From Bilabrum cf. latius (Eukaryota): DNA of 64,000 nt. A model generated the notes under the pieces. That model saw only the letters and a program-made list of their open reading frames with translations, had not been told where the DNA came from and made no database searches. Location: NCBI GenBank assembly GCA_965178125.1, contig OZ237763.1, positions 496,001-560,000 on the forward strand. The letters run 5' to 3'. Both the position numbers and the translations under genes were made by a program. Shown here in pieces: positions 1 to 64,000 of this stretch; the stretch's first letter is position 1; every line of letters begins with the position of its first letter.

Positions 1-2
1 GC

Positions 3-752
3 TAGGGTCTGTTGGTTGTCACCCTTCTGGTCGCGCTGGCAGGCGTGGCTGACGCTGACAGTGGTTTGGTGCAGGTGCTGGGTGGCTTCACAACCACGGC
101 ACACGTCGCTGTGGTTCTATTTGGTCTGTATGAGGTGGCGCTCATCGGCAGCATGGAGTTGGGGCTTTCAAACTCCTTGAGAACCTGCTAGGTTTTGAGC
201 GTGTGCAGCTCGTGCTACAAATGTTCTCTGTGCGGCGATGTTCCCGACGAATGCAAGAATCAAGAGGCAAGACAGTCTGATGAAACGTAGCGTGTGCCTG
301 GTCATCGAAACGGTCTTGGTGGTCCGAGACGACGTGCGGGAAACAGAGGGGGTGATGCTGGTGAAAGCGACTAGATTCAGTCAATGACTTCTAATCCTGT
401 GGCTGGTGGAAGGTACAGAAATCCGCTGAGATTGGGCGAAACGACAGTATCTCCTATAGTTGCGGTCTCATCAGGGCACGGACAGGATGCTCGCACTTCG
501 CGGGCTTCCGAACACAGTAGATCCGCTCGTGAGTGGGGTTCCGCTGGAGATATGGCCGCAAGCCAGACGGGTGAAACCGTGAACTCACTCTCCGCTTCTA
601 TTGGTCCACTCGACCCGCCCACTGCGTTAGGGAGCCGTGCAGATCGCGTCAGACTTGTAAACAGTGCTCGTGTGGGGTCACTGGCGCCAGACTCAAAGGG
701 CGTGAACCCAATGATCCGCGCTCTGGGCAAGTCCGCAGACCGTGAGTGTTGA
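3..752 (+). CDS. 3' end of a membrane protein (5' end outside the window), read with TAG=Gln
   Basis: Frame 3 has no TAA/TGA from position 3 to the TGA at 750-752 and carries four in-frame TAG. It begins with two hydrophobic segments (GLLVVTLLVALAGV; HVAVVLFGLYEVALIG) followed by a polar tail that includes ORF 384..752. Confidence 0.6.
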
Positions 753-1850
753 CTGCTGAGGCCCTCAAGTGGCCCCTGCCAGAGCCTGTGGAACTCTCTA
801 GGCACTGGGACTCCATGAGCTCTGCAGCGGCCTGGGTCCATCCGTGCGGACACATGTGTATTTTTCAGATAAGTCAAATGTATAATTTTCACAGCCACCT
901 GAGTATATTTCAGCAGGCTAGATTGCCGCTCAAGTTTTTTTGTGACCTCGCAACTTCCTCGTCCGTATGTGTGATCCGATCCCTGATCCGGTTCACTCGT
1001 CACCCACACGTCACCCGATCCCTGATCCGCTCCGGCGGACACACCGGGCAGGGCATCCCAACTGTGTGGCACGCTCTCTTTTGACGACCCACGTGAGATT
1101 GCGTGCCCCGCGACTTATTCAGGACATCTGGCGCGAGCAACAGCCACCTGCCCAGAGTGGAGGCAGCGCTGGTGCAGCCAAGGATGCACAGCCTCACATG
1201 GCAAGCGGGGAGCAATCGGAGATATCCTACCAGCTCAACATGCACGCGCCACCAGCGGCCATGCCTCGGGAAGGCTACAAGGCGACACCTCCATCACTCG
1301 ACGCTCATGATACCGAGTCGACGGTGCGCGTGGTCCAAGTCGATGACAATGCCCTCAGTCCGCTCGTCATCCCTCGGGCAGAATGCGGCAACACACGCAC
1401 CAACCCACGCCGCCCGGCTGGACGCAGACAAGCTGGCCCAGTCGGGACGCGTGCACTTGCTGGCCCAGTCGAGACGCGTGGGCTTGCTGGCGGCAGCTGA
1501 AGTCTTTGCGTGCAGCGGCAAGGACCACAGGGTGGTGATCGATGAGTTCTTGACCCGGTTTCCCGATCGGGGCCGCAGGGATCTGCCTCATCCGCAGGGG
1601 CCGCAACCCCGCTCGGTTCGCACGGGCTGCCAGACCAGAACTTGCGCAGCAGCGCCCTCGCGGGCTCCTTGCCCACAAAGCATCATCCTCCGCACGTTGC
1701 TGCCGCCAGGTAGTCGTTCTTGCCGCAAACTCCACCCGTGGGCCAAAGCCCCACGATGCCAGTGGAGAAGGTTCGCTGTGCCGTACTAGGTCGTTGTGGT
1801 TCGTTCACTCTTACGGGACTCAAGCACGCCATTACGAGCCGAGTCTAGGC

Positions 1851-4766
1851 ATGGATGAACCCCTCGCCCTACAGGACCATAGTACTTCCATGGAGGCTCG
1901 CAAGCGCGTCGCGCTAGCAACGGCTCACAGGCTACGCTCCATGGAGAACGAGCTTGATCGCATGCAACGCAGGATTCGGACGCCTCAGCAGCTCCTGCTG
2001 GACGAGAAGAAAGGCGGCCACGGACTGTTTCGTTTCTACTTGGAGCAGAACATTATATCTAAGCGCGTGGTTGCTCGAGAGCGGCCGCGGCTGGACGAGA
2101 TGAAGCGGCGGTTTGCATCGGTCCTCGAGTTTGCCGCACACGAGCATGCCCGCAACGCGCAGACGAGCGATTTGAACGGAGCAGCCGCGCTGCCAGACCA
2201 CGTGGCAGTTCGCGTGGACCGGAACGATGGGGATAGTACCGCGGCGGACGGTACGTCAGGCGGCCGCGCCATTGATGACAATCTGCTGGCAGGTGCTTGC
2301 GGCCCCGCCGAGCCGACACACCGAGAGGGCCAGACAGACCGCACGCCCGGATCACCGGGAGCCGTGTCGCGGCAGGCCTCCGAACTCGACGCGGGCGACG
2401 AAATCATGAGCATCGCCAGCGTGCGAGCAGTGACGATGCCCACGCCGGCCGACCTGTCCGCTGTCCCCGTCCGATCCCACCGGTCCGCCTCTGTCCCTGG
2501 CGGCGCGATCGTCGACCGGTCGGTCCAGGGTGTGGCAGGTGCGACAACGGCCGCGGGCGTGAGTCGAATGGACACGGTGGGCGAGCACGAGTCCGAGCGC
2601 GAGGACAGCCGGGCGCAGCCCTCTCCTCGAGCCTACCAGGGAACAGCACCCCAGGGAACAGCCTCCCAGGGAACAGCAGCGGCCGTTGTGGCCCTACCAC
2701 AGCCCGTTGACACCACGGGCGCACTCTCCCGGTCCAAGTCGGAGGCGGTCCCGCGCACCTCCAGCGCCGCCCTGGCTGCCTCGGTTGGGGTGAGCGCCTT
2801 GGGCACGCAAGGGCAAGGGCAGGGGCAGGGGCAGGGGCAGGGGGATGACACGGCCCGCTTAGGTTCCGCAGCCGCGGGCGCGGCGCCTCCGAGACGGGGC
2901 AGCGCCACCGCCGTGCTGGACGCGCCAGGGAACACGTGGACCAGGCAGGCCTCCACCGGTGCGATCGCCGCCGCCGCCGGTGGGGGGGCTGCTGCGGACG
3001 CCGATAGCGTGTGGGAGCGGTCTGTGAGGGCGGGTATGCGGAGGAGGAGGCAGCGGCAGCACGGCGGAACCACGGGCACCGGCGCCGCGCCGCCGCACCA
3101 GGGAACTGGCGCGGTGGCCGCCGTCACGGTGCCGACCGTTGTCAAACCCAAGCGGGACGCAGATGCGGGCAGCCGCCGATCCGGCAGCGGCAGCGGCAGG
3201 AGCAGGAAGGGTAGCGTGACCCACGAATCAGATGGCACCCCCCGAGAGAATGGAGAGCCCCGATCGGATTCGGACCAGGACGCCCTGCTGCTGGTGTCAG
3301 AGTTTGGCGCCCCCCTGCCCGTGGAGCACCTGAGCAGGGCTACGGGGGCGGAGGACGACGCTGACACGGAGGACGACGTGGTGGCCCGGCTGGTGCTCTT
3401 CTCGTTTCTGGGGAACACGGCGGGCTTCGTGCTGAAGCTGGCGGTGGCGTTCATCAGCTTCTCTCTCGCCATCGTGGGCAGCACGATCGACTCGTTCCTC
3501 GACATCATGGGCGGGCTGATCATATACATGTCCAGCCACGAGGCCAGGAAGATCCGCCCGCACAGCTTTCCCGTGGGCAGGGCGCGGGTGGAGCCGGTGG
3601 CCATCATCGTGCTGAGCGTGATCATGTCCATGGCCGCCCTGCTGCTGGTCCGCGAGGCTGTGGGCGTGCTGGCGGCCAGCACGGGGGAGGACCCCCCCGA
3701 GGCCGAGGTGGATCCCTGGGGCCTGGGCGTGCTCGGCCTGAACATCATCTACAAGGTGCTGATGGCGTGGTCCTGCGCGGCATACGCGGACGTGTCGCCC
3801 TCCATGAGTGCCCTGGCGCAGGACCACGTCAACGACTCACTCACCACCGCCTTCGCGCTCGTGGCCGTCGGTGTGACGAGTGCGGACGACCGCCTGTGGG
3901 TGGTCGACCCCATCTTTGCCATCCTGCTGGGCTGCTACATCGTGTACACTTGGTTTAACGAGGGCAAGGAGCAGGCGAGGAAACTCGTCGGCGAATCGGC
4001 CGAGCCCACGCTGCTGGCGGAGCTGCACCGCGTGGCGTATTTCCACGACCCCAGGTGCGAGCAGGTCGAATCCATCACGGCGTACCACGTTGGCACGAGG
4101 ATCATCGTGGAGATCGACCTCGTGCTGGACGAGGGCACCCCCCTCCACGAGGCGCACGACGTGGGGGAGGCGCTTTAGGTCAGGCTGGAGTCCTTCGCAG
4201 AGGTGGAGAGGGCGTACGTGCACCTGGACTACCACGCGGGGCATCCCCATAGCAGCATCGGCGAGGTGGGGGTCGGTGCGATCGGGGGAGCGGCGGAGGG
4301 GGATGCCGGCAGCGCGGCGGCGGGGTCTGGGTCTGGGTCTGGCAGGATTGGCAGCATCGGGGTGCTGAGGGGGAGAATCACGGGGCTTGGTGGGGGGGGC
4401 GGCTGCGAGGGCGAGGGCGGGTCGTCGGGGGAAGTGCTTGCTGGCGACATCGGGGGAACTAGCGGGAGCGGGAGCGGACTGGCTGGGGGTCTGGGGGCTC
4501 CCGGGACGGGGAGTCGGGAGGGTCTCGGCCTGGCCGCCGCCGGCGCGCTCGTGGCCTGCATGCTGCGTGCCGAGCACCGCGTCAAGGAGCCCGAGACTGG
4601 CCGGGGCCTGCTAGGAGACGACGGGGCCACCGTGGTGGAGGAGGAGGTGAGGAGAGCAGCGGCAGCTGCGGACGCGGCACAGGGGCAGCAGCAGGAGCTG
4701 CAGGAGCGGGAGCAGGAGCAGGAGCAGGCAGGCGGTGCTGCGGCTGTCATCGGCGGCGAGTCTTGA
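1851..4766 (+). CDS. Cation diffusion facilitator (Mn-CDF/MTP-like metal tolerance protein) with long disordered N-terminus
   Basis: TM motifs STIDSFLD, FPVGRARVEPV, ALAQDHVND, VDPIFAILL; C-terminal domain AYHVG..IIVEIDLVL...PLHEAHDVGEAL[TAG 4176-4178]VRLESFAEVERAYVHLDY. ORFs 1794..4178 and 4203..4766 share one frame; ends TGA. Start placed at the first in-frame ATG. Confidence 0.92.
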
Positions 4767-7662: not shown

Positions 7663-7863
7663 GCCACATGCGCATGTTAAATAGCATCGGGAATGGGATA
7701 TGGGTGTCAATACGCAAGGTTCATTCTGTACATCCGGATTGGTAGCCGCGCCACGGCACTGCGGCACTGCTCCAACCCACTTCAATGCTCCCAGATTCTG
7801 TGTGCATTGCTCAGGTGCAAGCGAAATCATCTGAGCAGTATCTCACCGAATACTATCATTGAC

Positions 7864-10800
7864 ATGGTATACTTGTATTAGGCTGTATGCGTTGCTAGTG
7901 TACTAATCGCAAATTGGTTTGCAGACGCCCAGTGTCCCCGAAACTCGGTGCAGATAGCACACACGGGCGGCGAGCTCAACACAAACACATCAAGCAATGC
8001 TAGTATCAGCAATGCGTGCATTTGTGGTTATGGATACTCTTGGTAGTTGTCGTCCGGTCAGACCGAATGTGTTGCGTGTAGTCCTGGATACATTTCAGAA
8101 CAGGCAAACGCAACTGAATGCACCGGATGCGAAGCAGGAATGTACTCTCATGGAGGTTCAATGGCATGCACGGGCTGTCCGGCCGGAACATTCTCGTATG
8201 ATTCGGCAACCAACTGCACGGACTGTCCTGCGGGCATGTTCTCGGGGGCCAACTCCAGCAGCTGCACACGATGTCCGGCGGGCACACGCTGGGACGCCGA
8301 CTCCAGCAGCTGCACGGGCTGTGCTCCAGGCAGGTTCTCGAACGGCACCACCGGCAGCTGCACGGACTGCCCTGCGGGCACGTTCTCAGGGGCCAACTCC
8401 AGCAGCTGCGCACGATGTCCGGCCGGGACCTTCTCGGATGCCTCGGCAATCAGCTGCGCGGACTGTCCTGCGGGCATGTTCTCGGGGGCCAACTCCAGCA
8501 GCTGCACACGATGTCCGGCGGGCACACGCTGGGACGCCGACTCCAGCAGCTGCACGGGCTGTGCTCCAGGCAGGTTCTCGAACGGCACCACCGGCAGCTG
8601 CACGGACTGCCCTGCGGGCACGTTCTCAGGGGCCAACTCCAGCAGCTGCGCACGATGTCCGGCCGGGACCTTCTCGGATGCCTCGGCAATCAGCTGCGCG
8701 GACTGTCCTGCGGGCATGTTCTCGGGGGCCAACTCCAGCAGCTGCACACGATGTCCGGCGGGCACACGCTGGGACGCCGACTCCAGCAGCTGCACGGGCT
8801 GTGCTCCAGGCAGGTTCTCGAACGGCACCACCGGCAGCTGCACGGACTGCCCTGCGGGCACGTTCTCAGGGGCCAACTCCAGCAGCTGCGCACGATGTCC
8901 GGCCGGGACCTTCTCGGATGCCTCGGCAATCAGCTGCGCGGACTGTCCTGCGGGCATGTTCTCGGGGGCCAACTCCAGCAGCTGCACACGATGTCCGGCG
9001 GGCACACGCTGGGACGCCGACTCCAGCAGCTGCACGGGCTGTGCTCCAGGCAGGTTCTCGAACGGCACCACCGGCAGCTGCACGGACTGTCCGGCGGGCA
9101 TGTTCTCGGGGGCCAACTCCAGCAGCTGCGCACGATGTCCGGCCGGGACCTTCTCGTATGCTTCGGCAATCAGCTGCGCGGACTGTCCTGCGGGCATGTT
9201 CTCGGGGGCCAACTCCAGCAGCTGCACACGATGTCCGGCGGGCACACGCTGGGACGCCGACTCCAGCAGCTGCACGGGCTGTGCTCCAGGCAGGTTCTCG
9301 AACGGCACCACCAGCAGCTGCACGGACTGTCCGGCGGGCACGTTCTCAGGGGCCAACTCCAGCAGCTGCGCACGATGCCCGGCGGGCACACGCTGGGACG
9401 CCGACTCCAACAGCTGCGCGGGCTGTGCGCCAGGCAGGTTCGCGAACGGCACCGCCAGCAGCTGCGCGGACTGTCCGGCGGGCACGTTCTCAGGGGCCAA
9501 CTCCAGCAGCTGCACGGGCTGTCCGGCCGGGACATTCTCGTATGCTTCGGCAATCAGCTGCGCGGACTGTCCGGCGGGCACGTTCTCAGGGGCCAACTCC
9601 AGCAGTTGCATACGATGTCCGGCCGGGACATTCTCGTATGCCTCGGCAATCAGCTGCGCGGACTGTCCGGCGGGCATGTTCTCGGGGGCCAACTCCAGCA
9701 GCTGCACACGATGCCCGGCGGGCACACGCTGGGACGCCGACTCCAACAGCTGCGCGGGCTGTGCGCCAGGCAGGTTCGCGAACGGCACCACCGGCAGCTG
9801 CACACGATGTCCCCCGGGCACGTTCTCAGGGGCCAACTCCAGCAGCTGCACACGATGCCCGGCGGGCACACGCTGGGACGCCGACTCCAACAGCTGCGCG
9901 GGCTGTGCGCCAGGCAGGTTCGCGAACGGCACCGCCAGCAGCTGCGCGGACTGTCCGGCGGGCATGTTCTCAGGGGCCAACTCCAGCAGCTGCACGGGCT
10001 GTCCGGCCGGGACATTCTCGTATGCTTCGGCAATCAGCTGCGCGGACTGTCCGGCGGGCACGTTCTCAGGGGCCAACTCCAGCAGTTGCATACGATGTCC
10101 GGCCGGGACATTCTCGTATGCTTCGGCAATCAGCTGCGCGGACTGTCCGGCGGGCACGTTGTCAGGGGCCAACTCCAGCAGCTGCACACGATGCCCGGCG
10201 GGCACACGCTGGGACGCCGACTCCAACAGCTGCGCGGGCTGTCCGGCCGGGTCAACGCCCAACCAAATGAAGTCTGGATGCGTGTCATGCTCTGCTGCGA
10301 CAGCTTCAGCTATGGGCACGCATCCATGCGTTGACGTCAATAGGCCAGACACTGTATGCGATAGTTTGATGCTCTGCTCAGGCCATGGGCGGTGCGACGT
10401 GGCGCAGTCTGCCAGTGGGGGTCTGCAGTGCACATGCGACGTAGGTCACGCTGGGGTGCGCTGTGACGCGTGCGCTGCTGGCTTCGCGCTCGACACCACC
10501 TCGAATCGATGCAGACTGTCGCCCTTGGGAACAGACGTAGGCGTTAAAGGCCCTTGCTATGTGTCTCGAGTTGTCCTACAGCTGCTCCTTGCTGTCGATT
10601 TCGATCAGGCCTACGTACCGGACCCAGGTGTCTTCGAGGCCTAGATCGCCGCTGATGTTGCCGGTGCTTTGGACATTGACGCGTCTCGGGTGCTGGTGCA
10701 TTCTGTGGGCCGCGGCAGCGTAGCAGCGCAGTTCAGCATCGTGCCGGCAGACACGGACACCGCCGCGGCCTACAACGACCTGGTGGACAGCCTTGGTGTG

Positions 10801-32876: not shown

Positions 32877-33121
32877 GGTTAGCCAAGATCCTCGAAAGCT
32901 TAGATGTGGCAAAAAACAGCTAAATCACCGCTGGGATGCTCCCAATCAGTGCAGTGAAAGCAATTGCTGCGAACTATGAGGCAGTCAGGCTTCGAATTAT
33001 TCTAGCCCACCTCCTCAGTAGCGTTCTTGCCGAGTGCTCTTGTCCGAATTTCATTGGAAGGTAACGTGCTATTATCTTACCTGGATTATTTGATTTCAGA
33101 TTCCCGTCTAGCGACAGCAGC
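32877..33121. promoter_or_regulatory. Putative bidirectional promoter between the HECT and NBAS-like genes
   Basis: 245-bp AT-richer gap between divergent inferred ATGs at 32876 (-) and 33122 (+). Positional inference only; no motif identified. Confidence 0.45.
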
Positions 33122-51626: not shown

Positions 51627-54600
51627 ATGCCCAGGTTGACTCGAATTCGAGTCAAAAACTTTAAATCATATTCCTCAGATGTCGTAGTGCAGTTGCCTGG
51701 AAGTGGGGCACGCGTAATCAGCTTGCATGGTGAAAATGGGTGCGGCAAGAGCTCCCTCATGGACGCTATCGCGTGGGGACTTGGAGCGGCTCCGAAACAA
51801 GTCGGGGCGAGTAAATCAAGCCAGTTGATTTGCAAGTCATCTAACAAGCAAGCTGTACCTTCGAAAGGCTCTCGGGCAACCGCCCACGGAGAAGTCGAGT
51901 TGCAGTTTAGCGTTGGAGGCTCGAAGCACAACGTGTTGACCGTATTCGACGATAGAGGCAGAAAATTCAAAATTAACGGAAAGTCATCATCTCTGGCCTA
52001 GCTGCAGCAGTTCGTTTTCTCCACGCTACGCTTGTAGACGCAACCCTCATTGGCAGCCTACATCAAGCAAGCCACCACCGCCGGCATGCTGGAGACCGGT
52101 GCAGCAACCAGCAAGTACCTCGAGGATGCACTTGGAATCTCTGGAGCGTTAAAAACTCTATCTCTCACTGCCGTATCGAGCCAGAAAAGCGCGGTCGCGA
52201 TACAAGCAGCTGAGGCAGCTATCCTTGCGGCCCGCCGGCACCAAGGTGCGAGGAGCTCTGATGAGATTGCTGGAGAAGCCATCAAAGCAGCCGTACAGGC
52301 TACCACATGCATCATTTATCGTGTAGCAGATGAATCGCTGCGCCAGGTCGAGGGCTTGCTCGAGGAGTACAATGCCGACAGCAACGAGATGCAACCAGAG
52401 GAGAGCCAGGTCGCCGAGGTCTGGGCTGGGGCATCAGCGCTGCTCAATAGCCAGGTAGATGTTCCACCGACGACATTTCAAGACCTCGTATCCAACCTTC
52501 AGCAAGAGGTGGAGAATACGGAACGAGCGCGGGCAGCGGCGGAGAAGGCCGGTGCCGTGGTCACAGGCGCACAGCAGAGCGCACTGCAGGCCATCCAGTA
52601 CGCAAAGGCATCCGCTGCATCGGTTGCAGATGCAGCCACGACTGGTCCAGCTCATGATTCAGTCGAAACAGAGATGGGATCCCTCAAGGACCAGCTTAGA
52701 GAGGGCCTATTCCGGGCACGCGCCTCGCTCAAGCAGCCACTGAATCTGCTGGCCAGCGCAGCTGCATCTGAGTACTGCCCGCAGTCCCTGGCCGATGCTG
52801 GCCTCGATGCAAGCACCACAGCTCTTCCATCCACTGCTACACTGACCAGTGCCATGAAATCGCTGGGAAAGGAGAGTCGGGCGATCCGCCAGCGGGTCGG
52901 GGCTGCCTTGCACCTCATCCGTCGGGTTCGCCTGGTCGCTGGTGGGGAGCAGGTTGTTACCTCGCTACCAGATTCAATGAAGATGTGCGCAGTGGTAGAA
53001 GTATTTGTAGATGCATGGAACGGGGGCTCTGAAGATGTGGTGCACCGCAAGCGCTTGGGATCCGGCTCGGTGGAGATTCGCAGGACTGGTGCTGTCGTGG
53101 CTGTCACGTTCTCTGCAACCGGGGCATCACAGGAACTTGCCGTTGCTGATATAGCCTCGTTGCAGCAGGGAATTGAATCCATTTGGACGGAAGCCGTGTC
53201 TGCAAAGCATCCTTCAGCCGCTGGTCGCACGGGAGACACGCAACACTCCGTGGTGAGAGCGCACGAGGTGTGCCGGTTTCAAGTCGACGCGATGGACAGC
53301 GCAGATATTGCTGCGACTGTGCAGTCAACGGCTCATGCAAGCGCGATAAGCACGGCCAAGATGTTGCACAGACAACTCTCAATTGCCGAGCTCCGTCGGC
53401 TAGCCATCATGGCTGGTGTTGTCATACAGGACCACAAGCTCCGCTCGGCTGTGTGCACGTCCCCTGCTGAGGCAAAGCAATTCTTCACCAAGATTGGCGA
53501 TCGCGAGCGGGTTACTGCTTGGCCACTGTCCGAGCTGAAGGCGAAGTCGATCAGGCATCGCGAGACGAGGGTGGCGGCAGCAGGCAAGCAAGCCGGCATA
53601 TCGGATCCAGGCACAGTGCTTGTGCCCGCACCAGGTGCAGACAACCTCGGTCGATTCGCAGTCGACATGATCCTTGGAAGGACTTGCCTGGCTACTGATG
53701 ACACAACTGCCAAGACGAGCATTTCTACTGCTGCAGGCTTGCGATCCGTCACAACGGACGGCCTCACGCACTCGCACGGTTCGGTGCGGCAGCCACCCTT
53801 TCCTTACGGCACCGCAAGCAAGAAAGAGCTCGCCAAGCATCTTTCGAAGTCAACGTCACTGATGGTTATGATTCTGCTTTCTGCAGCAGAGAAGCAGCTC
53901 CTTAGTGCGCTGCTGGCTTTTGCTCTGGACTGCGTAGCTCGCTCCGGGCTGGGTGCGGTGCTCGATGGTGTCAGGGAAGCGGCAGCGCTGAATGACGAAC
54001 TGGCTGAACTAGACTCTCAAGACTGCAATAGCGCTGAACAAGAGAATGAACAAGAAGGAGACGCCGACTCTGATGAGCAGCTTTAGTTGCAAGAGGCTCT
54101 ACGGGACTGTCTGGTGGAGCTTCACAAGGCTGGCAGGTTAGCAACTTCGCTTACGTCGCTGCAGACGGCAGTCTCGCGAGCAATCAAGAGCACTGAAGCA
54201 GCAATGCTAGCTGATCGGGGGTCGCTTGAGTTGGTGCAAGCGGCTGAAGCCGCAGTGGCTGACGTCCTGATTGTCCGGTTAGATTGCTCGAAGCAGCTTG
54301 AACAGCGGGTCCATGAGCTCAAGACGGCACTTCAGAAAGCCAACGCGTGTGTAGCACAGTACACGGCCGCAGAACAACAAGCATAGATGCGGTAGCAAGT
54401 GTCAAGCCTCCTGAATAAGCTCCAGACGAAGTTAACGGAGGTAGTAGAGAAGGTTGGTAGGGCACCAGTTCCGCCGGACCCAGCAGAGTGCATCGGCAAG
54501 GGCCTCCAAGACGTGCTGCAAGGAAGCTAGCGCATGGTGCAGGGTGACGTGAGCCAAGCTGTGACCAAAGCTACAGACAAGGGCTTTGCTTTGCTGCTAG

Positions 54601-55415
54601 CATCAGTCCGCGACAAATGCAGAGGCAGCCTGGCTGCACCCCGAGCGGTCAAGGCGTTGCAGGCCGCAGAGAGCTGCACGACTCGCACCAGCTCTCTTCT
54701 AGCATGCATCCGCGAAGGAACCATGCCGACAGCGACGCTATCCGATTGCGCTAAGCACGCTCATTTGGCGTTGTCGCACGGCAGAGCTGCGCTTGCTACA
54801 CTGGAGGCCATGCCAAGCGGCCAGGATGGCGTCAACCATGAGGCAATCGCAGCTGAGAGCGCACGGCTGCAGAAGCTCTACAGGCAGGCAAATCTTTTGA
54901 AGTCCTTGCACGAGAAGAAACTGGTGCCCAGGCTATAGGCAATGATCGAGAGTCGCAGAGTAGATGGCATCAGCGGGTTAAACGAGTCTCTGGGTGAGCT
55001 CGTGCCATCGATGGTGCCTCGCCACGCTGTGAACGTCGAGCGTGGGAGCTACGAAGAGGGGGTTGGATTCAAGCTTGCGGTACGCCGGGACGGCCAGACG
55101 CTATCCCCTTCCGGACTGTCGGGCGGGCAGCGAAGCATGGTGGCGTGCGCACTGCTGCTGGCCGTCAACCGCATGCATAAGTCCCCGCTGATCCTGCTCG
55201 ACGAGGTTGACGCAGCCTTGGACGCGACGAATCGCGCTAGATTCGCCTCGATCTTGCAGGAGCATCCTGCACTTGCAGACACGCAAGTCCTGGTGATCTC
55301 CCACCACGATCTTGTCCGCAGAGTGGCCAGCCACAGCATCGAGCTGGAGTGGAAGGAGGGCGGGGGAGGCAGGCGGGTGGTCGCGTCCGTGAAGAAGAAC
55401 AAGGTGTCTGGCTGA
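51627..55415 (+). CDS. Divergent SMC-family ATPase (SMC2-like hinge and C-terminal head), ~1262 aa
   Basis: KNFKSY; Walker A GENGCGKSSLMDAI; Q-loop YIKQ; hinge-like RVTAWPLSELK / ILGRTCLATDDTTAK / RSVTTDG; signature LSGGQRS; Walker B LILLDEVDAALD; QVLVISHH. Seven in-frame TAG; ends TGA. Confidence 0.88.
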
Positions 55416-55465: not shown

Positions 55466-58007
55466 TCAGGTCCCAGTTCCTGGCCGTGAACCAGCCCCAC
55501 TCCTCTGTGCTAGCATGCGGCTCACGTCATCTCTGCTCATTGGTTGCGTCGGCTAGGGCCCCTGCGATGCGCTCCTGCCATGCATAGCTCCTGCTCCCAT
55601 CATCCCACCCTGAGGCATTGCTTGCTGCGACCCCATGCCACCCGAATAACCCCCCGCGCCTGCCATCCCGCTGTGCGAAGCAAACTGCTGAGAGTAAGCC
55701 CCCCTGTGCCCCATGCCCCCACCAGGCATACCACCGTACGACGCTGCCAATCCACCGGCAGATTGCATCCCCATGGGGTAGCCCACTCCTGCTTGCTATC
55801 CATACGGGCTACTTATGCTGCCCATCCCCATACCCGATCCCGCTCCCATGCCAGCGCCCATGCCCATTCCCCCCATGCCGGGCCCCTGCTGACCGATGGG
55901 CATCCCTGTGGATGCAAACCGCTTTAAACCGCCGTAACCAGCAGCTGACTGGCCATCGATGCTATGGGCACTAGCAAACGAAGCACCGCTGGCATGGTGC
56001 GGGCCCGGTCCACTGGCCAAGGACCGCGGGGTGAAACCCGTGCTGCTAGCTCCCACTGAGCCAAGTGCGCCAGTGGAGACCGCACTGCTTCCTCCCGGTG
56101 GTGCAACAGCAGCTGTAGAGCTCCCACTGCCCTCTTGGATGACACCTCCAAACAGATCGTCGTCGTCTTCATCCTACGCTCCACCTGCTGCCTTGGGTTG
56201 GCTCCCCGGCCCGCCCGAAGCATTGGACGGTGCATCCGATCCGAACAGGTCGTCTTCGTCTTCATCATCACTGGGAGGCTGCAAACCTGCTTGCGTATCG
56301 CCCCCGCCGTCACCTCCTCCACCTTCACAAAATGGGTCAAAGTCGTCCCCATCTTCGTCTCGATCCTGTGGTGCCGCTCCCCCGCTAGCCCCTGAAGCAG
56401 GCGGGTCGTCACCACCATCATCTCCAAACGGATCGAAATCGCTTCCGTCTCCACCGTCCGTAGCGGTAGACTTCTTTGCCTTCGTCTTGCCTGCCCCCGG
56501 GTTGGCAGGGGCGCTGTCATCACCTCCGAAAGGGGACCAGTCCGAGCCACCGTCGTCACCACCACCAGCAGAAGCAGCAGCAGCAGCAGCACTACTAGAG
56601 GCTTCGGGCCTGCTGCCCCTGCCCCTCTTCGACGCCGTTCCTGTAGCCTGCTTCCCTTTGCCTCCGATCTGCCTGCCCCCCCTCGTCCTCCTACTAGAGG
56701 AGGTGGAGGACCCGCTGCCACCACCGCCCGCCTGCGCACCCTGTTGCGCGAGGCTGAGCACCGCATCGACTGCGGACGGCGCCGCTGCCTTGGCCCTGTG
56801 GGCGCGAGAACGACCGCCTTTACCTTTCGCAGACTCGGCTGCCACGGTGGCAGACTGCTCTTCTCCCGTGGGGCACTGCTTCCCGGCCTTGCTTAACAAG
56901 AGTGCCCTGAGCTTGGATGCGGTAGAGGACTGCCTCAGTGCACGCTCGCCGCCGCCGACCTTCATGGCGCGAGAGGCTGCCGCGATAAATGAGAGGATAG
57001 CCTCGCACGTGGGACGCTCCTCGGGGTCTATCCGGAGACACGCGCGCAGCAGTTCAATGCATATTGGCGGGGTGGATGCCGCCTCGTCTGGCAGCGTGTA
57101 GGTCGCGCTCACGATGGCTAGGACCCCAGTCGTCTGGAACGGGTGAGATAGGAACAAAATGGCGTGCCATAGGCAGCCGAGGGCCCACACATCCACCCGC
57201 TCGTCGATTGCGTGGCTGCTGTAGAGGTCAACCATTTCTGGGGCTCGGAAGTGCGGCGTGGTGAACCGCTCGATCCTATCCTGCTCGTCGGTTCGGTCGC
57301 GCTTGTCCTTGATGGGCCCTTGCCTGTCACTGACTGATCCAAAGTCGCATAGCCGCAGCTTTTTGTCGGCCCCAATGAGCACATTTTCCAGCTTTAGGTC
57401 TCGATGCGCGATCGGCGGCGACATCTTGTGCATGTGGGCAACCGCTGATACTATCTGGCCAAAGCAGCCTAGCGCCTGATTCAGTGGCAATGCAGATGAA
57501 CGGCTGTTCAACTTGTCCAGAAGAGTTCCGCCCGGGCAATTCTCAAGCAACATCTCCACCTTAATTTTGTCGCTTGCCAATCGGGTTGACTACGCCTCGA
57601 GCAAGCGCACGATATGGGGATGCGAACCGAGAGCCCGCATGACCTTAACCTCATTCATGAGCTACTCTGTATTTTCGTCTCCCTGCGATGCAACATAAAG
57701 TGAAGGCCCACTACGATGCACCGAACCGTCGTGGCGCAAGGGACTGCAACTGCAAGCAGATACAGCGTAATCACTTGAATACACAACATTCAGCCAACCC
57801 CGACGGCGTAACTATTGACATTGCACTCACCATCACCATCATAGTCTTCAAAACAATATTCTGGCCGCTGCTGGCGTCCCGCACCAAATCCACCGACCCG
57901 AAGCCACCCTCTGCCAGACGCTTTAGAACCGTCACTGATCTGCCACCCACGACGGTAGCTCGGGATTCACTACCATCTCCAAACGGGTCGACCGAAAAAG
58001 GGTCCAT
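55466..58007 (-). CDS. NAK-family Ser/Thr kinase (AAK1/BMP2K/GAK-like) with DPF-motif tail
   Basis: LAEGGFGSV, intron 57830-57683, E[Q]LMNEVKVMRALGSHPHIV, PPIAHRDLKLENVL, LCDFGS, TTPHFRAPEMVDLY, DVWALGC; tail with DFDPF, WSPF, DLFG. Five in-frame TAG; ends TGA at 55468-55466. Confidence 0.92.
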
Positions 58008-58136: not shown

Positions 58137-61100
58137 ATGGAATTCCGTGATGATGCTAAGAAGACTACAGATTACTCCTCAGCTGCCCCTCCTGAATCGT
58201 AGGCTGTAAAGGTGAGCGCCTGGGTCCCCGCAGAACTCGACGAATGCACCCTAGCAAAAGGTGAATTCCGATGCGTCGCTTGATTGGAGCCAACAAGTTC
58301 AACCTCTCAGGTTTACGTTCGTATGCGTCCACCGGCTGGAGGGGCCGCTGAAGCGTCCAGATAGTTTGTTCAAGACGAGGGGGACGAAGGCAAAGTGTCA
58401 CTGAAGGTGAGCAGGCTTGTGGCTCAACGTATCGCACAGTTTGAGCATCAGACGCCGTTACCCGTATATTCTGCCAGTACTTTTACTAAGTCGCAGACAT
58501 CGCTGCATGGCGAGCACTCATTTCGGTACAGCAAAGTATTCAGGTCGGACTCAGGCCAAGCGGACATATTCAACGAGGTCGGCCAGCCGATGGTAGATCA
58601 TTGCTTGGAAGGCTACAGCGCATGCGTTTTTGCTTACGGGTAGACGGGCAGTGGGAAAACTTACACAATGTTTGGAGATGCAGCGAACCAGGGCGTCATT
58701 CCGAGGTAAGGCCTCTTGATGATTGCACCCGATCCTTGCTCGCCTGCGAGTCGATCCAGCTGTTGCTGAGCTTACGAGCACCAGGCCTCCGATTGCATCG
58801 CAATCCATGCATCTCTCTATTTCCGTATGTGCCTGCTGCCCGTACTCTTTTGCACCGCAGGTCGCTGGATGTGGTGTTTCGTCAGCTGGCGGCGCGCAAC
58901 TCTTTCAAGGAAACCGCGGTCGTCGTGTCTTTCCTGGAGATCTACCTCGATAGAATACGAGACCTGGGTAGGGAATACCTCCTCGGCAAGCGGAAGGCAG
59001 ACCCCCGGTTCGGCATCGCAGAGGGCGAGGAGGTCTCATCTGCGCACGAGGGGGCGGAGGACGAGGACCCCTCGGCAAGCCAGAAGGGCACGAGCGACTG
59101 GTACCTGAACACATTCCGGCACGCTGGCAGGAGAAAACACGGGAGGCGCCGAAGCGTCACGAGCGCCCAAGGGGGCGGCTCCTCGGCTGCCGCATCGGAC
59201 GCAGACCCGCGGGCCCGCAGCTACGAGGAGGAGTCTTTAGACGTGCGGGAGGACGCCGACGGGCAGGTGTACGTCCGGGGACTCAGCAAGGTGCCTGTGC
59301 GGAACCCCAAGGAAGCCATGGACGTCGTTCTTTCGGGGTTCAAGATGCGAGCCACGCACGCCACGGACATGAACGAGGTCTCCTCGCGGTCGCACACGGT
59401 CTTTACCATACACCTGATGCAGAGGGACCGGGCCACTGGGGAACAAGTCTCGGGGCACCTCAACCTCGTGGATCTAGCCGGGTCTGAAAGGCTCTCCCGC
59501 AGCCACAGCGAAGGCCTCAGGATGACCGAGGCGCTGTCAATCAACTCGTCGCTGACCGCCCTGGGCAAGGTGGTGATGTCGCTGCACAAGGCGTCTGTAG
59601 TGACGGGGGGCGGGAGCGGTGGTGCCACGGATCACGAGCAGCTGCATGTGCCCTACCGCGACTCGAAGCTCACGAGGGTGCTCCAGAATTACCTCGGAGG
59701 GACCTCCTTCCTCGCCCTCCTCGCAACGCTGCACCCGCGCAAAGACGACGCTGACGAGAGCCTGTCCACGCTCCAGTTCGCGCACAGGTGCAGGTATATC
59801 GTCAACAGGCCCAAGGTGAACTACTCGCTGGCAGACTCATCGGACAAGGACAGACGGATCGCGGCTTTGACGAGCGAGAACGCGCTGCTCAGGAGGCAGC
59901 TGGCGCTCTCTAGGCTTGCCTGCAGGGTGAGGCTGGCCAGGCTGATGCTGGACGCGGGCGTGCGGGGCACGATCGCCGCTGACGGGCGATTCCAGGCTCC
60001 CGATGGAAAGCTGCTGGGAGTATCCGCCGAGATGGCCAACAAGAGCGACTACGTGAAGAAGGGAGCCAGGGTGCTCGTCACTGGCGGGGGGCCTCTGAGC
60101 GAGCAGGCCATCACCAAGGCGGCACAGGTGCTTCAGACAGAGGTGCGCAAGCTGTAGAAGCAGAAAGACACGAGCGGGCAGGTGGCAGGGGACGGGTCCG
60201 TGGCCAGCGGCGCCGCCTCTGACAGTTCCATGGCCGCCGCAATGAAGCGAAGATCCACGCAGGCGGAGGTGGAGCAGGCCGAGGAAGAGGTCGCTGGGAG
60301 GCTGATTGGGGAGCAGGCCATCGCTTCCACGCCGGGACTGAGGAGCCCGACGCTGGAGGACCTGGCCGGCATTCCGGCCGATGCGGCGGAGGAGGCCTCG
60401 GGCGGACCACGGCGTAGGAGGCAGAGCCAGATGGGCGGAGTGCTTGCCAAGCTGATCGCGGGAGGCAAGTCCGTGGGGCTGGACGAGCCCAGCGTGCAAA
60501 GCGCCGGATCCGCCGGTACCAGGCACGAGGACGTAAAGTGGGAGCAGATGGACGCCATGAACGGCTCCATGGCAGGCAGCATAGGAAGCGCCATCGGGGC
60601 GGGGATGGGAACGGGCAGCATGCCCGCTGGCAGCGTGGCTTCGGGGCGCACCGGTCGCAGTGGCAGGGGCCATGCTGGCATGGCACTGTCCGACACCGTG
60701 GGCAGCATGGACGAGTCGCTTTCTTCCGCGCTTGAGAGTGTCACCGGCGGTACCATTCCTCTGGGGACTGGACCCATGGGGGGGGCTGGGCTTGGGGTGG
60801 CGGGAGGAGGCGCCACGCGTCGGGGGCGTCGGAATCGGAGGACTTCTCGGGTGTCTCAGGCGGTGAGAGGCGGGGGCAGTCGTCGGAGCCTGGGCTCGGG
60901 CTCGAGGCGATCCAGAGGGGGGAAGGGCGGTGCGAGCGACAGCGGCGGTCGAGTGGAAGGTGACGGTGGGTCCGTGGGTGGCGGTGGGGATCAGTACGGC
61001 GGCAGCGTGGGGTCACACACGGGACTCAGGCTGACCGATATCGCGGGCGGGGATCTGGCTGCGGGCGTGCCCGGCGCGATGATGGCCGCAGCGTACCACG

Positions 61101-63097
61101 AGGCGCTGGAGCTGGCTCGCCTGGCCAACGACGGCGGTCCGACGATCGCGCTGCAGCAGCGGATCGACGAGTACAGGGCCCGCATCAGGGAGCTCAAGGA
61201 CGAGCTGGACACGGAGAGGAGCGCCAGCAAGAAAGAGCTGGAGCGTCTGCAGTCCCAGCTGAGGAAGTCAAGGGCGAGGCAGGCGGCCAGCAAGAGGCAG
61301 GCGGAAGAGTCGGAGCGCAAGATGCGGGACGCGCTGGACGACACGAGCGCGTCGTATTCGAGACAGGTCGCCTCCGTGATAGCCCAGTCCCAGATCGCGG
61401 TGTCTAGGGAACACAAACTCGTGTCTAAGGTTCCTGACGAGCTCAGAGTGTCCAGTGAGGCGCTACATACGGCTGAGAGGCTGCGGCAGGAGGCCCGAGC
61501 CCAGGAGGAGCAAAAAAGGACGCAGGAGGTCTCGAGGGCCACTCTCGCGGCGCAGGCGGAGCTGCAGCTCAAGGCCTCCCAGAGCAGGCTGGCGCTCAGG
61601 GGGCTTGAACAGAAGGTAAGGGAGGTGGAGAATGGCAAGCAGGAGGCCGAGCAAGCCAGGGAGCAGACGGAGAAGACGATCGCACAGGAGCTCAAGGCTG
61701 CGTGGAGGTATGCCGCGGGCCTCGCTGCCACCATTGATGACATCGAGGCGGGGCGGGCCCCCGTGAAGATCGACACGACGGGTCGGCGCTCGTTCGTCGT
61801 GAGGCGAGCCGCACTGCCGCCCAACCCGATGGCCACCTTGCCCGGAGGCATGCCGTACCTGCGCAAGCTGCTGGATGACGACTTCAAGGCGACGGGATCG
61901 AGGGGAGGAGGAGGAGGAGGAGGAGAGAACCAGAACGGTACAAGGCACGATGCGCCGTGGACGCTGAGCCGCAGCATGCGTGGCACAACCAAGACCAGGC
62001 AGGTGCCCAGGGCGCAGAGCGCTGCGTCAATCGGGACGAGCGGGCGTGCTGGCGACAGCAGGGGCCAGGGGTTCGGAGGTAGCGGAGCCCTGACCGGCAG
62101 CGCGGGGCGGCTGCCACTCCTGGACGCATCTGCAGGAAGGGTCGCGTTTGGAAGTGGCGACCAGGCCGGTGCCATTGCCCGGGCTATGCGGGATGGGTCG
62201 GGGGCGGGATCCGGTGCTGGCGCGTTTGCGGAGGATCGGGAGAACGAGCTGGGCGGCAGGCTACCTGATCCGGACCTTGGACCTGGGGTTCCAACTCCGG
62301 CGGAGAGGCCCCCGCCGTCTCCCAACAGCAGTGCCGGGCGAGGGAAGCCCCGGGGCGGCAGCAAGGTGATCGGGTGGGAGGGGGTCGGGCACGGGACCGG
62401 TGCGCTTGAGGCAGCGGGTGAGGGCAGGCCGCTGCACTCCCAGCCCAGCAACCACTCCTCTGTGCTCAAGGGCATCGAGCAGCAGCTGCAGCACCAAGAG
62501 AGGGAGAAGGAGAGGGGGGGCGAGAGCAAGACGTCGCTTGGCAGTGGTTCCAGCCGCCCCGCGTCTGGACTCTCTCTTCCTCCTGGCACGAGGCCGAGGA
62601 CTAGCTCGGGAGTGCATAGGCAAGGCCATGGGCAGGGGCAGGGGTACGGGGGCTCCTCAGGGGGCGACGGCTGGGGAACGGGCACTGCCATTGGCGCGCT
62701 TGAAAACCAGTTGGGGATACGTGAAGGGGGCAGGCAGCAGCCCAGCATGGCGAGTGGGGCTAGCAGCGGTAGCAGAAGGCTCCACGGATCCTTGGGCAGC
62801 CGCGATGATGGGGGTGAGGGCATGGTGATCGCGGGTGGCAGGCAGCCGTCCCCTTCGCCCATGTCGAGTGCGAGAGAGCTGCGGAACCGAGAGATCGCCG
62901 CGGCGCGCGCGGCGAGAGCTCGGCTGGAGGCACGGGCGAGAGGATCAGGGAACAACCCAGGGAACAGGCGGGTGCAGCATCCTGGAATGCACCAAAGGTC
63001 CGTTGGGTCTCTCGGGAGCGCCAGCGGCAGCAGGGGCGGTGGTGGGGCCTTGCACGGGCTCGCCGATCTGAGCAGCTCCAGTGGGTTCCGCGGGTGA
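58137..63097 (+). CDS. Kinesin-family motor protein (N-terminal motor, coiled coil, disordered tail)
   Basis: AVK|VYVRMRP, FAYG[TAG 58641]TGSGKTYTMFG, GVIPR, VSFLEIY, MNEVSSRSH, LVDLAGSER, HVPYRDSKLTRVLQ. Introns 58212-58310, 58407-58496, 58706-58860; TAG 60155 joins ORF 60182..63097; ends TGA. Confidence 0.95.
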
Positions 63098-63414
63098 TGA
63101 CGAGTGTCACGCACATTGACCTGCGTAACGTGGGGCTATGCGGTCGTGCGTGCGGTCTGCTTGGGTGCTGCTTGGGTGCTGCTTGGGCGGCTGTGCTATC
63201 CAGGTTGAACCGAAAACAGTGTTGTTTATGTGTGCTCAATGCGCCCGGTGTTCCGGTTTTGCAGCGCGAAATTCGATCGCAACCACTCTCTCGGGCCCAT
63301 AGGCAGCTTGGACTGTCCATGCATCGAGCATTCGCTCGAAGTGGTGCAAGGCCACGGGCTGGGCTTGGCAGGGCTTGTCCAAGCCAGGCCCGTGAACCGA
63401 GAACCAAGCTCCGA

Positions 63415-63999
63415 TCACGACTCCATGGGAGCGCTGGCCCCTCCAGTTGCTGCCGCTGCTGCTGCTGCCACAGCGTGCGCCTCTGCCAGCTCGCGCGCCG
63501 CCTCTGGGCCCTCCTTGAGGCCGGATGCCTTTGCCATTGCGACCAGGTCGGCATGTTCCAGGGAGAGGCTCGGCGCCGAGCCGGTTGCAGCGCTGCTGCT
63601 CGAAGTTGTGGATTCGGCTTGAAATCCAGTTCCTGCTGGCCCCGACGGGCCCCACTCGCCCCCCTTCATGCGAAGGAAGTTCGCCACGATGCGGTGGCCG
63701 TGCTCCGTAGCGACAGATTCGGGGTGAAACTGAACCCCTTCCATCACGTACTTTTTGTGGCGGACCCCCTGGATAATACCCCTGTCCGTTCGCGCAGTTA
63801 TGACCAAGCTATCTGACGGAAAAGTGCCCAGGGTCCCAGCTAAGGAATGGTAGCGAATGGCACGCATGCCCTGCGGTACCTCTGCGAACAAACCACGGCC
63901 ATCGTGTGTCATGACTGACTACTTTCCGTGCTTAATCTCCCCTGCAAATTCCACTTTGCCCCCGTATACCTCATACATGGATTGGCAGCCCAGGCAAAC
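63415..63999 (-). CDS. Class I glutamine amidotransferase domain, anthranilate/aminodeoxychorismate synthase component II-like (5' end outside the window)
   Basis: VCLGCQ, GEIKHGK[TAG]SVMTHDG, RYHSL, EGVQFHPES; ends TGA after an Ala/Ser-rich tail. Confidence 0.9.
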
Positions 64000-64000
64000 G

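What the first reader, a model, noticed from the sequence alone, without database searches (positions are those of the whole stretch)
1..64000. Variant nuclear genetic code: UAG is a sense codon (Gln)
Seen: nearly all genes are cut by in-frame stops that are always TAG, never TAA or TGA, and the reading frame and protein family continue across each one. By hand there are over 100 such codons, including tandem TAGTAG and TAG next to CAG. Established: UAG=Gln with UAA kept as stop corresponds to NCBI table 15 and is rare in nuclear genomes (reported for the fornicate Iotanema spirale and a few ciliates); most nuclear reassignments change UAA and UAG together. Inference: this GC-rich, intron-poor genome does not look like a typical AT-rich ciliate genome, so it may be an independent origin, possibly in a bicosoecid-like stramenopile. 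I cannot confirm the taxon or whether the case is already published.
Basis: partly seen in the sequence, partly recalled or inferred. Interest (0 to 1): 0.97.

Follow-up and report, generated by a model that had tools for sequence, protein, structure and literature searches.

The report
Stop codon UAG recoded to glutamine
This stretch of nuclear DNA, from a single-celled relative of the marine flagellate Cafeteria, uses the usual stop codon UAG to encode the amino acid glutamine, a rare change to the genetic code.

Summary
In nine curated coding sequences (16,131 codons) there are 110 in-frame TAG codons. The only TAA (2) and TGA (7) codons in frame are the nine terminal stops. Reading TAG as sense opens ORFs of 4,995 and 3,833 codons, against a longest ORF of 979 under the standard code. 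Spliced RNA contigs from two other studies carry 20 of 21 checked TAG codons unchanged.

Two lines of evidence point to glutamine. One TAG sits at the invariant Gln of the kinesin P-loop, FAYG-Q-TGSGKT. Against a related metagenome contig that also has in-frame TAG, well-aligned TAG columns pair with CAG in 6 of 8 cases. The rate is 36 of 52 for ordinary Gln codons and 16 of 1,248 for other residues. Three gene fragments from closer relatives have Q at three more TAG sites.

TAA and TGA remain stops, which is the pattern of NCBI table 15. The closest named relative is Cafeteria roenbergensis, a bicosoecid stramenopile, on the evidence of one gene. Six full-text searches found no report of such a code in stramenopiles. 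The tRNA, eRF1, 18S rRNA and peptides could not be examined.

The parts
17937..32924 (-). Giant HECT-type E3 ubiquitin ligase gene. The ORF has 4,995 codons and the CDS from the first Met has 4,980. It holds 35 in-frame TAG, no internal TAA or TGA, and ends in TGA.
   Evidence: Relatives.
33065..44566 (+). Orphan giant ORF of 3,833 codons with 41 in-frame TAG, including two TAGTAG pairs. It ends in TGA.
   Evidence: No Pfam family and no homologue of similar length.
58641..58643 (+). TAG codon at the invariant glutamine of the kinesin P-loop (FAYG-Q-TGSGKTYTM).
   Evidence: One search repeated the search with TAG masked as X, and Q stands at that column in all 5 alignments shown.
58137..63097 (+). 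Kinesin gene. RNA-supported introns lie at about 58212-58310, 58407-58496 and 58706-58860. It has 4 in-frame TAG and ends in TGA.
44626..47100 (+). Gene of 824 codons plus stop with no Pfam match, labelled here LRR/ankyrin-like. It has 7 in-frame TAG and ends in TAA at 47098-47100. The RNA contig ends about 50 nt downstream of that TAA.
   Evidence: (X5 record 9 and X7 record 22, 0 differences).
48843..51438 (+). Sulfatase gene of 581 codons with five RNA-supported introns. TAG codons begin at 49651, 50144, 50180, 50228 and 50885. The stop is TAA at 51436-51438.
47470..48557 (+). Short-chain dehydrogenase-like gene (family named by eye from the translation; its Pfam scan failed) of 324 codons with one intron (47764-47876). 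It has no TAG and ends in TGA. It is the one gene without a TAG.
51627..55415 (+). Divergent SMC-like ATPase gene of 1,262 codons plus stop. It has 7 in-frame TAG and ends in TGA.
55466..57937 (-). NAK-family (GAK/AAK1-like) protein kinase gene with an intron at 57682-57829. It has 5 in-frame TAG and ends in TGA.
1854..4766 (+). Cation-efflux (CDF) transporter gene. Its single in-frame TAG is at 4176-4178, and it ends in TGA.
7861..12237 (+). Membrane protein gene with Cys-rich ephrin-receptor-like repeats, a DOMON domain and a cytochrome b561 domain. The ORF holds 5 TAG and ends in TGA.

Best explanation
The window is nuclear DNA of a heterotrophic stramenopile related to Cafeteria (Bicosoecida or nearby). 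In this organism the codon UAG has been fully reassigned from stop to glutamine, while UAA and UGA still terminate translation, which is the pattern of NCBI table 15. UAG makes up about 16% of glutamine codons and exchanges freely with CAG between relatives.

Shown here: TAG is abundant in frame in expressed, conserved genes. It is still present in spliced mRNA. It occupies Gln columns. TAA and TGA occur only at gene ends. At least one more divergent relative shares the trait.

Inferred from what is established for other reassigned codes: a tRNA-Gln with anticodon CUA reads UAG, and eRF1 has lost or weakened UAG recognition while keeping UAA and UGA.
For: 1. ORFs. TAG=Q opens ORFs of 4,995 and 3,833 codons, against a longest ORF of 979 under table 11. 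The TAA=Q and TGA=W controls do nothing comparable.

2. In-frame counts. 110 TAG, 0 internal TAA and 0 internal TGA in 16,131 curated codons. The nine gene ends are 7 TGA and 2 TAA. The other two frames together hold 110 TAA and 614 TGA.

3. Transcripts. Contigs of runs X5 and X7, from two other studies, lack ten GT..AG introns and match the DNA with no differences over TAG-bearing exons. They cover 20 of the 21 TAG codons in four genes. The only difference listed anywhere is at 61685, which is not a TAG. So the TAGs are neither spliced out nor edited, and they are not assembly errors.

4. Identity, first line. TAG 58641-58643 aligns with the Q of the kinesin P-loop in all 5 alignments shown, also when TAG is masked as X. 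That GQTxxGKT/S is the kinesin consensus is established knowledge.

5. Identity, second line. L001 is a 6,457-nt metagenome contig carrying the orthologous HECT gene of a relative. It has 14 in-frame TAG and a TGA stop. With TAG masked, TAG columns pair with Gln in 9 of 21 aligned columns. The rate is 50 of 133 for CAR-Gln columns and 83 of 3,431 for non-Gln residues. With flanking identity of at least 0.6 the figures are 6 of 8, 36 of 52 and 16 of 1,248 (binomial P about 1e-10). All Gln partners are CAG.

6. Identity, third line. ORF fragments from closer relatives have Q at the TAG sites: P0060 (192 of 195 residues identical) at HECT residue 4902, P0147 at 4008 and P0087 at 4543. Three fragments end exactly where the window has TAG or Gln.

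7. Taxon. The best named hits are two Cafeteria roenbergensis proteins. In the tree, window+L001 (support 100) is sister to the Cafeteria-containing clade (support 99), and the two together have support 97.
Against: Two of the 8 well-aligned TAG columns pair with Thr (ACT) and Ser (TCG), not Gln.

Against distant homologues the TAG columns are mostly not Gln. In one search, among the 35 HECT TAG sites, only residues 534 and 4609 have Q in one homologue. The Cafeteria proteins show E, R, D, L or A. The CDF TAG aligns with Gly in bacterial YiiP. At 22-34% identity these comparisons carry little information.

The comparison with relatives rests on a single gene, and L002 is the same organism as L001.

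That P0060, P0087 and P0147 were called under a standard-type code is inferred from their truncation and from the Val-to-Met start. It is not documented.

The tool labels X5 'probably DNA' and X7 'RNA?'. That these contigs are RNA is my inference from their spliced form.

No tRNA-Gln(CUA), no eRF1 and no peptide evidence is available. The only tRNA in the window is tRNA-Pro(AGG). Whether UAG ever also terminates translation cannot be judged from this window.
Confidence: 0.93

Rival explanations
1. UAG is a sense codon but encodes a residue other than Gln. Candidates from other lineages are Glu, Leu, Ser, Tyr and Lys.
For: UAG=Leu, UAG=Ser and UAG=Glu exist elsewhere (PMC11687900 passages). Two well-aligned TAG columns pair with Thr and Ser. 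Distant homologues often show E, D or R at TAG columns.
Against: The kinesin P-loop invariant Gln is a TAG. TAG pairs with CAG in 6 of 8 well-aligned columns, the same rate as true Gln codons (36 of 52) and about 60 times the rate for other residues (16 of 1,248). Three fragments from relatives have Q at TAG sites.
Confidence: 0.03
2. The code is ambiguous. UAG is read as Gln inside genes but also terminates some genes, depending on context, as in Condylostoma or karyorelict ciliates.
For: This cannot be excluded from 64 kb. Gene ends were defined here by the first TAA or TGA, so a TAG stop would have been read through by construction.
Against: The HECT protein runs to the same C-terminal residues as its homologues and then stops at TGA. 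In L001 a TAG lies three codons before the TGA stop, inside that conserved tail. The RNA contig of the LRR/ankyrin-like gene extends about 770 nt past its last TAG and ends about 50 nt after the TAA.
Confidence: 0.05
3. UAA is reassigned too (a UAR=Gln code, table 6) and is merely rare because the genome is GC-rich.
For: UAA and UAG usually change together (PMC11687900 passages). TAA is the rarest stop triplet in the window, at 164 on the plus strand.
Against: There are no internal in-frame TAA in 16,131 codons, although CAA is used 166 times and TAG 110 times against 426 CAG. The same TAG/CAG ratio would predict about 40 TAA. TAA ends two genes, one of them with the transcript ending about 50 nt later. 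TAA=Q lengthens no real ORF.
Confidence: 0.02
4. The TAGs are not translated. They would be pseudogenes, assembly or sequencing errors, or sites removed by splicing or RNA editing.
For: None beyond the prior expectation that in-frame stops mean broken genes.
Against: Contigs of other studies carry the same TAGs, in spliced form, with 0 differences. Only TAG, never TAA or TGA, interrupts the frames. A divergent relative keeps the same long ORF with TAGs at other positions.
Confidence: 0.01

Closest known systems
NCBI translation table 15 pattern (UAG=Gln, UAA and UGA stop) in the fornicate Iotanema spirale
   Same: Only UAG is reassigned, it is read as Gln, and UAA is retained as a stop. Iotanema is also a free-living heterotrophic flagellate.
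   Different: It belongs to an unrelated supergroup (Metamonada versus a Cafeteria-related stramenopile). I saw the Iotanema case only as cited in passages of PMC11687900 and did not read the original paper.
Ciliates with UAG-only reassignment to Gln (Protocruzia tuzeti and two phyllopharyngean lineages)
   Same: The same codon takes the same new meaning, with UAA not changed in the same way (PMC11687900 passages).
   Different: This window does not look like ciliate DNA. It is a 64-kb contiguous stretch at about 60% GC with genes of 11-15 kb, and its nearest named relative is Cafeteria.
UAG-only reassignments to other residues: an uncultured rhizarian (Leu), Scotinosphaera (Ser) and the ciliate PL0344 (UAG=Glu, UAA=Lys)
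   Same: The fates of UAG and UAA are uncoupled (PMC11687900 passages; PMC10553269, seen only as a search-listing abstract).
   Different: The residue here is Gln, not Leu, Ser or Glu.
UAR=Gln codes (table 6: many ciliates, Ulvophyceae, Hexamita, Streblomastix, Amoeboaphelidium)
   Same: A stop codon is read as Gln, presumably by a near-cognate-derived tRNA-Gln.
   Different: Here UAA stays a stop: 0 internal in-frame TAA in 16,131 codons, and two genes end in TAA.
Cafeteria roenbergensis (standard-code bicosoecid)
   Same: It is the closest named relative of the giant HECT protein: 34% identity over about 1,088 residues and 46% over the matched stretches.
   Different: Its orthologues are uninterrupted proteins of 3,083-3,361 aa under the standard code. 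The window's lineage sits on a separate, sister branch.

Membership tests
Table 15-type nuclear code (UAG=Gln; UAA, UGA stop) | UAG occurs in frame within conserved, expressed protein-coding genes. | tested here: met
   110 in-frame TAG in 9 CDSs. Pfam domains continue across them. 20 of 21 checked TAG codons are present in spliced RNA contigs.
Table 15-type nuclear code (UAG=Gln; UAA, UGA stop) | UAG is decoded as glutamine. | tested here: met
   This is alignment evidence only. The kinesin P-loop Gln is a TAG. TAG pairs with CAG in 6 of 8 well-aligned columns, against 16 of 1,248 for non-Gln residues. Three fragments from relatives have Q at TAG sites. There is no peptide evidence.
Table 15-type nuclear code (UAG=Gln; UAA, UGA stop) | UAA still terminates translation. 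| tested here: met
   No internal TAA in 16,131 codons. Two CDSs end in TAA. The RNA contig of the LRR/ankyrin-like gene ends about 50 nt after its TAA.
Table 15-type nuclear code (UAG=Gln; UAA, UGA stop) | UGA still terminates translation. | tested here: met
   No internal TGA. 7 of 9 CDSs end in TGA. The HECT protein and its relative L001 end in TGA right after the conserved C-terminus.
Table 15-type nuclear code (UAG=Gln; UAA, UGA stop) | A tRNA-Gln with anticodon CUA, and an eRF1 that no longer recognises UAG. | not testable with these tools
   No whole genome is held. The only tRNA in the window is tRNA-Pro(AGG), and L001 and L002 have none. There is no eRF1 gene in the window.
Bicosoecida (stramenopiles) | Placement by 18S rRNA or phylogenomics. 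| not testable with these tools
   There is no rRNA gene in the window and no genome.
Bicosoecida (stramenopiles) | Protein-level affinity to named bicosoecids. | tested here: inconclusive
   One gene only. The best named hits are two Cafeteria roenbergensis proteins. In the tree, window+L001 is sister to the Cafeteria-containing clade, with support 97 for the joint clade. All other rows are unnamed.
Ambiguous stop/sense codes (Condylostoma and karyorelict type) | The reassigned codon also serves as the genuine terminator of genes. | tested here: inconclusive
   No case of a TAG terminator was seen among the 9 CDSs, but gene ends were defined by TAA or TGA. The conserved HECT C-terminus ends in TGA.

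The most novel reading that the evidence does not exclude
A whole clade of Cafeteria-related heterotrophic stramenopiles reads UAG as glutamine while keeping UAA and UGA as stops. The evidence is the window organism, a relative with 76% amino-acid identity in the HECT region that occurs in two metagenomes, and further relatives at 69-98% identity in other public assemblies. This would be the first nuclear genetic-code change in stramenopiles. It would have arisen independently of those in ciliates, fornicates, rhizarians and green algae, in a GC-rich, compact genome where mutation pressure towards AT cannot be the driver.
Probability: 0.6. Interest if true: 0.8.

Novelty: new member of a known kind. 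Interest (0 to 1): 0.74.

Why it matters
Nuclear stop-codon reassignments are few, and cases where UAG changes without UAA are fewer. Passages of PMC11687900 list only a handful. Each independent origin tests the competing models: codon capture under mutation bias, ambiguous intermediates, and tRNA or eRF1 changes.

Many known cases, ciliates among them, are AT-rich (my recollection). This genome is about 60% GC, so TAG has spread to about 16% of Gln codons against the base-composition trend.

Relatives at several distances exist: a standard-code sister group that includes Cafeteria, and TAG-using relatives at 69-98% identity. That offers a graded series for dating the change and for finding the tRNA and eRF1 substitutions behind it.

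There is also a practical point. Standard-code gene callers shatter this organism's genes into fragments. The public protein collections hold pieces of 129-195 aa of a 4,980-aa protein. Annotation and metagenome binning of this group need table 15.

Tried and rejected
Searches that gave nothing useful:
- The SMC-like protein found only distant, mostly bacterial SMC hits covering 5-13% of the query. It was useless for taxon or for columns.
- The 3,833-aa orphan protein found no homologue of similar length. A metagenome scan with an 862-aa piece of it found nothing.
- The Pfam scan of the tandem paralogue region failed on a coordinate slip and was not repeated. I read the region by eye in a script instead.
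- The sulfatase exon with three TAGs had no PDB match (after a frame slip).
- The earlier-findings index had nothing for this genome, for the words searched, or for the sequence.
- The protein-atlas search did not accept the TAG=Q translation of the orphan ORF, so the orphan stays uncharacterised.
- No whole genome is held. Codetta-type tallies and tRNA, eRF1 and 18S searches were therefore impossible.

Comparisons that were uninformative:
- The CDF TAG column is Gly in bacterial YiiP.
- The kinase TAG columns (residues 55 and 79) fall at variable positions in GAK and AAK1.
- HECT TAG columns against Cafeteria and two unnamed giant homologues are mostly non-Gln at 22-34% identity.
- In the tandem ankyrin-type paralogues, one TAG may align with Tyr in sister copies, but that stretch is too diverged to align with confidence.
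- TAG share per gene against GC3 (Spearman -0.54, P=0.17) and against CAA share (0.69, P=0.06) across 8 genes is suggestive only.

Sequencing runs: no listed holder is on record as RNA. That X5 and X7 are RNA is inferred from their spliced contigs.

Literature: full-text searches on stramenopile, bicosoecid, Bigyra or Cafeteria combined with terms for UAG, genetic code, sense codon or stop-codon reassignment and on flagellate with UAG, reassignment and eRF1 found no report of a stramenopile nuclear code change. PMC10120064 mentions only Streblomastix. Subscription journals and supplements were not searchable.
Full report
**What is in the window.** The 64-kb window is 57-66% GC and eukaryotic. 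Pfam finds the following:
- a cation-efflux (CDF) transporter;
- a membrane protein with ephrin-receptor-like Cys-rich repeats, a DOMON domain and a cytochrome b561 domain;
- a giant HECT ubiquitin ligase;
- a sulfatase;
- an SMC-like ATPase;
- a GAK/AAK1-like kinase (PDB matches);
- a kinesin.

There is also a 3,833-codon orphan ORF, a gene with no Pfam match that I labelled LRR/ankyrin-like, a short-chain dehydrogenase-like gene (named by eye; its Pfam scan failed), and three tandem ankyrin-type paralogues (also read by eye). The only RNA gene is tRNA-Pro(AGG) at 5432-5503. No whole genome is held for this window.

**The observation.** Under table 11 the longest stop-to-stop ORF is 979 aa. 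Reading TAG as sense gives ORFs of 4,995 aa (17937-32924, minus strand, 35 TAG) and 3,833 aa (33065-44566, plus strand, 41 TAG). The controls behave differently. TAA=Q leaves the longest ORF at 979 aa. TGA=W yields only mutually overlapping ORFs on both strands.

I curated nine coding sequences, four of them spliced at introns seen in RNA contigs. Together they have 16,131 codons, with 110 TAG, 2 TAA and 7 TGA in frame. The nine TAA/TGA codons are exactly the nine gene ends. The two other frames of the same DNA together hold 267 TAG, 110 TAA and 614 TGA. Chance would therefore put about 55 TAA and 307 TGA in frame. Nine of ten well-defined genes carry TAG; the 324-codon dehydrogenase gene has none.

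**Are the TAGs real and expressed?** Public runs from four coded studies hold parts of the stretch. Laid on 44557-63097, the contigs of X5 and X7 (two studies other than that of the best DNA holder) skip ten introns with GT..AG ends, or CT..AC for the minus-strand kinase. They are therefore spliced RNA, although the tool labels X5 'probably DNA' and X7 'RNA?'. Coverage of TAG codons is as follows:
- LRR/ankyrin-like gene: all 7 TAG codons, by X5 record 9 (44653-47150) and X7 record 22, with 0 other letters.
- Kinase: 4 of 5, by X5 record 11.
- Kinesin: 4 of 4, by X5 record 12 together with its three joints.
- Sulfatase: 5 of 5, by X5 record 10 together with its joints.

That is 20 of 21. For the kinesin and sulfatase exons that table 8 does not print, coverage is deduced from the joints and the record lengths. 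The only base difference the tool lists is at 61685, which is not a TAG. Splicing, editing and assembly error are thus excluded at the level that contigs allow.

**Which amino acid? First line of evidence.** After splicing, the kinesin reads ...CVFAYG-TAG-TGSGKTYTMFG.... The TAG at 58641-58643 falls on the Q of the P-loop in all five PDB alignments shown (KIFC3 and four Ncd constructs). This holds both with TAG=Q and with TAG masked as X. That GQTxxGKT/S is the kinesin consensus is established knowledge.

**Which amino acid? Second line of evidence.** A full HMMER search with the last 1,088 residues of the HECT protein found three giant homologues, short ORF fragments from close relatives, and then many more distant HECT proteins. 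In the alignments:
- P0060 (195 aa, 192 identical) has Q at HECT residue 4902, which is TAG in the window.
- P0147 has Q at residue 4008 (TAG) and ends just before residue 4018 (TAG).
- P0087 has Q at residue 4543 (TAG) and ends just before a Gln of the window.
- P0062 ends just before another Gln of the window.

These fragments come from unnamed Logan, JGI and ENA assemblies. That they were called under a standard-type code is my inference from their truncation and from P0060's Met where the window has Val.

**Which amino acid? Third line of evidence.** A metagenome scan with P0063 fetched two contigs, L001 (6,457 nt) and L002 (2,336 nt). They come from essentially one organism. L001 carries the orthologous HECT 3' region in one frame, with 14 TAG and a TGA stop after the conserved tail ...GGFR-TAG-NA. 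I aligned it to the window with TAG masked as X and counted how often each kind of column pairs with Gln:

| Columns counted | TAG | Ordinary CAR-Gln | Non-Gln residues | Binomial P |
|---|---|---|---|---|
| All aligned | 9 of 21 | 50 of 133 | 83 of 3,431 | 6e-10 |
| Flanking identity at least 0.6 | 6 of 8 | 36 of 52 | 16 of 1,248 | 1e-10 |

All six Gln partners in the second row are CAG. The two exceptions are ACT (Thr) and TCG (Ser). TAG therefore behaves exactly like a Gln codon and exchanges with CAG in both directions.

**Evidence that does not help, or that cuts the other way.** At 22-34% identity, the Cafeteria and unnamed giant homologues mostly show E, D, R, L or A at TAG columns. Q appears only at residues 534 and 4609, in one homologue. 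The CDF TAG aligns with Gly in bacterial YiiP. The kinase TAGs lie at variable positions. No suppressor tRNA, eRF1 or peptide could be examined.

**UAA and UGA.** Neither occurs inside any of the nine CDSs. TGA ends seven genes and TAA ends two: the LRR/ankyrin-like gene at 47098-47100 and the sulfatase at 51436-51438. The RNA contig of the LRR/ankyrin-like gene stops about 50 nt after its TAA. If TAA were a Gln codon used in the same proportion as TAG is to CAG (110 to 426), the 166 CAA would predict about 40 TAA. None is seen. The code therefore has the table 15 pattern. Whether UAG can also terminate somewhere in the genome cannot be told from 64 kb.

**Who is it?** The best named relatives of the HECT giant are two Cafeteria roenbergensis proteins (FNF28_03650 and FNF29_00457). 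They are 34% identical over about 1,088 residues, and FNF29_00457 is 46% identical over the stretches matched.

I built a quick maximum-likelihood tree of the last 520 residues. It has 40 rows: the window, L001, six near homologues, and the 32 proteins among P0065-P0099 that are at least 500 aa long. P0087 and the shorter proteins were left out, and TAG was masked as X. In this tree:
- the window and L001 group together (support 100);
- they are sister to a clade of Cafeteria, P0056, P0059 and P0061 (support 99);
- the two clades together have support 97.

The sister clade's full-length members are uninterrupted proteins of 3,083-4,230 aa. It is one gene, however, and only Cafeteria is named.

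**Comparison with what is known.** Passages of PMC11687900 list the cases where UAG and UAA differ:
- an uncultured rhizarian (Leu);
- Iotanema spirale (Gln);
- Scotinosphaera (Ser);
- ciliate PL0344 (UAG=Glu, UAA=Lys);
- Protocruzia tuzeti (Gln);

The present case has the same code as Iotanema and those ciliates, in an unrelated lineage. Six full-text searches combined stramenopile, bicosoecid, Bigyra or Cafeteria with terms for UAG, the genetic code or stop-codon reassignment. One more searched flagellate with UAG, reassignment and eRF1. None found a report of a stramenopile nuclear code change. Subscription journals and supplements could not be searched, and the public runs date from 2025, so a description may exist or be in press.

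**Verdict.** I rate it a new member of a known kind: a known variant code in what appears to be a new lineage, probably a new clade. The mechanism, a tRNA-Gln(CUA) plus an eRF1 blind to UAG, is inferred and not shown.

Noticed in passing
window 5432-7608: A tRNA-Pro(AGG) gene at 5432-5503 is followed directly by a 154-bp tandem repeat. The repeat has 13.6 copies at 96% match and spans 5508-7608. Its nature is unknown.
   Followed up: no
window 13400-17750: There are three tandem paralogous genes; the last two copies are spaced 1,632 bp apart. Their C-terminal domain resembles the C-terminus of the LRR/ankyrin-like gene at 44626-47100. Two copies appear to end in TAA and one in TGA. The in-frame TAA and TGA inside the units look like intron starts (GTAA.., GTAT..).
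   Followed up: partly
window 33065-44566: This 3,833-codon ORF has no Pfam family, no homologue of similar length among 5.8 billion proteins and no relative in the metagenome scan. It is an orphan giant protein.
   Followed up: partly
window 47259-51460: One RNA contig (X5 record 10, 3,261 nt) runs across both the dehydrogenase gene and the sulfatase gene, which lie 285 nt apart on the same strand. This could be read-through transcription, overlapping UTRs or an assembly merge.
   Followed up: no
window 44557-63097 (runs X5, X6, X7): Identical sequence, partly as spliced RNA, occurs in runs of three other studies that are labelled with three other coded organisms. The organism may live alongside other cultured or sampled organisms.
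   Followed up: no
window 24000-26000 (HECT residues ~2480-2760): The HECT protein contains an internal duplication. A Gly/Met-rich stretch followed by ...MDEDEMLRQALAASMATAKQDDEKRK occurs twice. From memory, this looks like a ubiquitin-interacting motif. A run of ten Gln between the two copies uses no TAG.
   Followed up: no
L001 6200-6215: In the relative's HECT gene a TAG lies three codons before the TGA stop, inside the conserved C-terminal tail GGFR-Q-NA. So TAG is read as sense even next to the true terminator.
   Followed up: partly
window 8176-10247: Repeats with a 240-bp period (8.6 copies, 86% match) encode the Cys-rich ephrin-receptor-like modules of the DOMON/cytochrome b561 membrane protein.
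   Followed up: no
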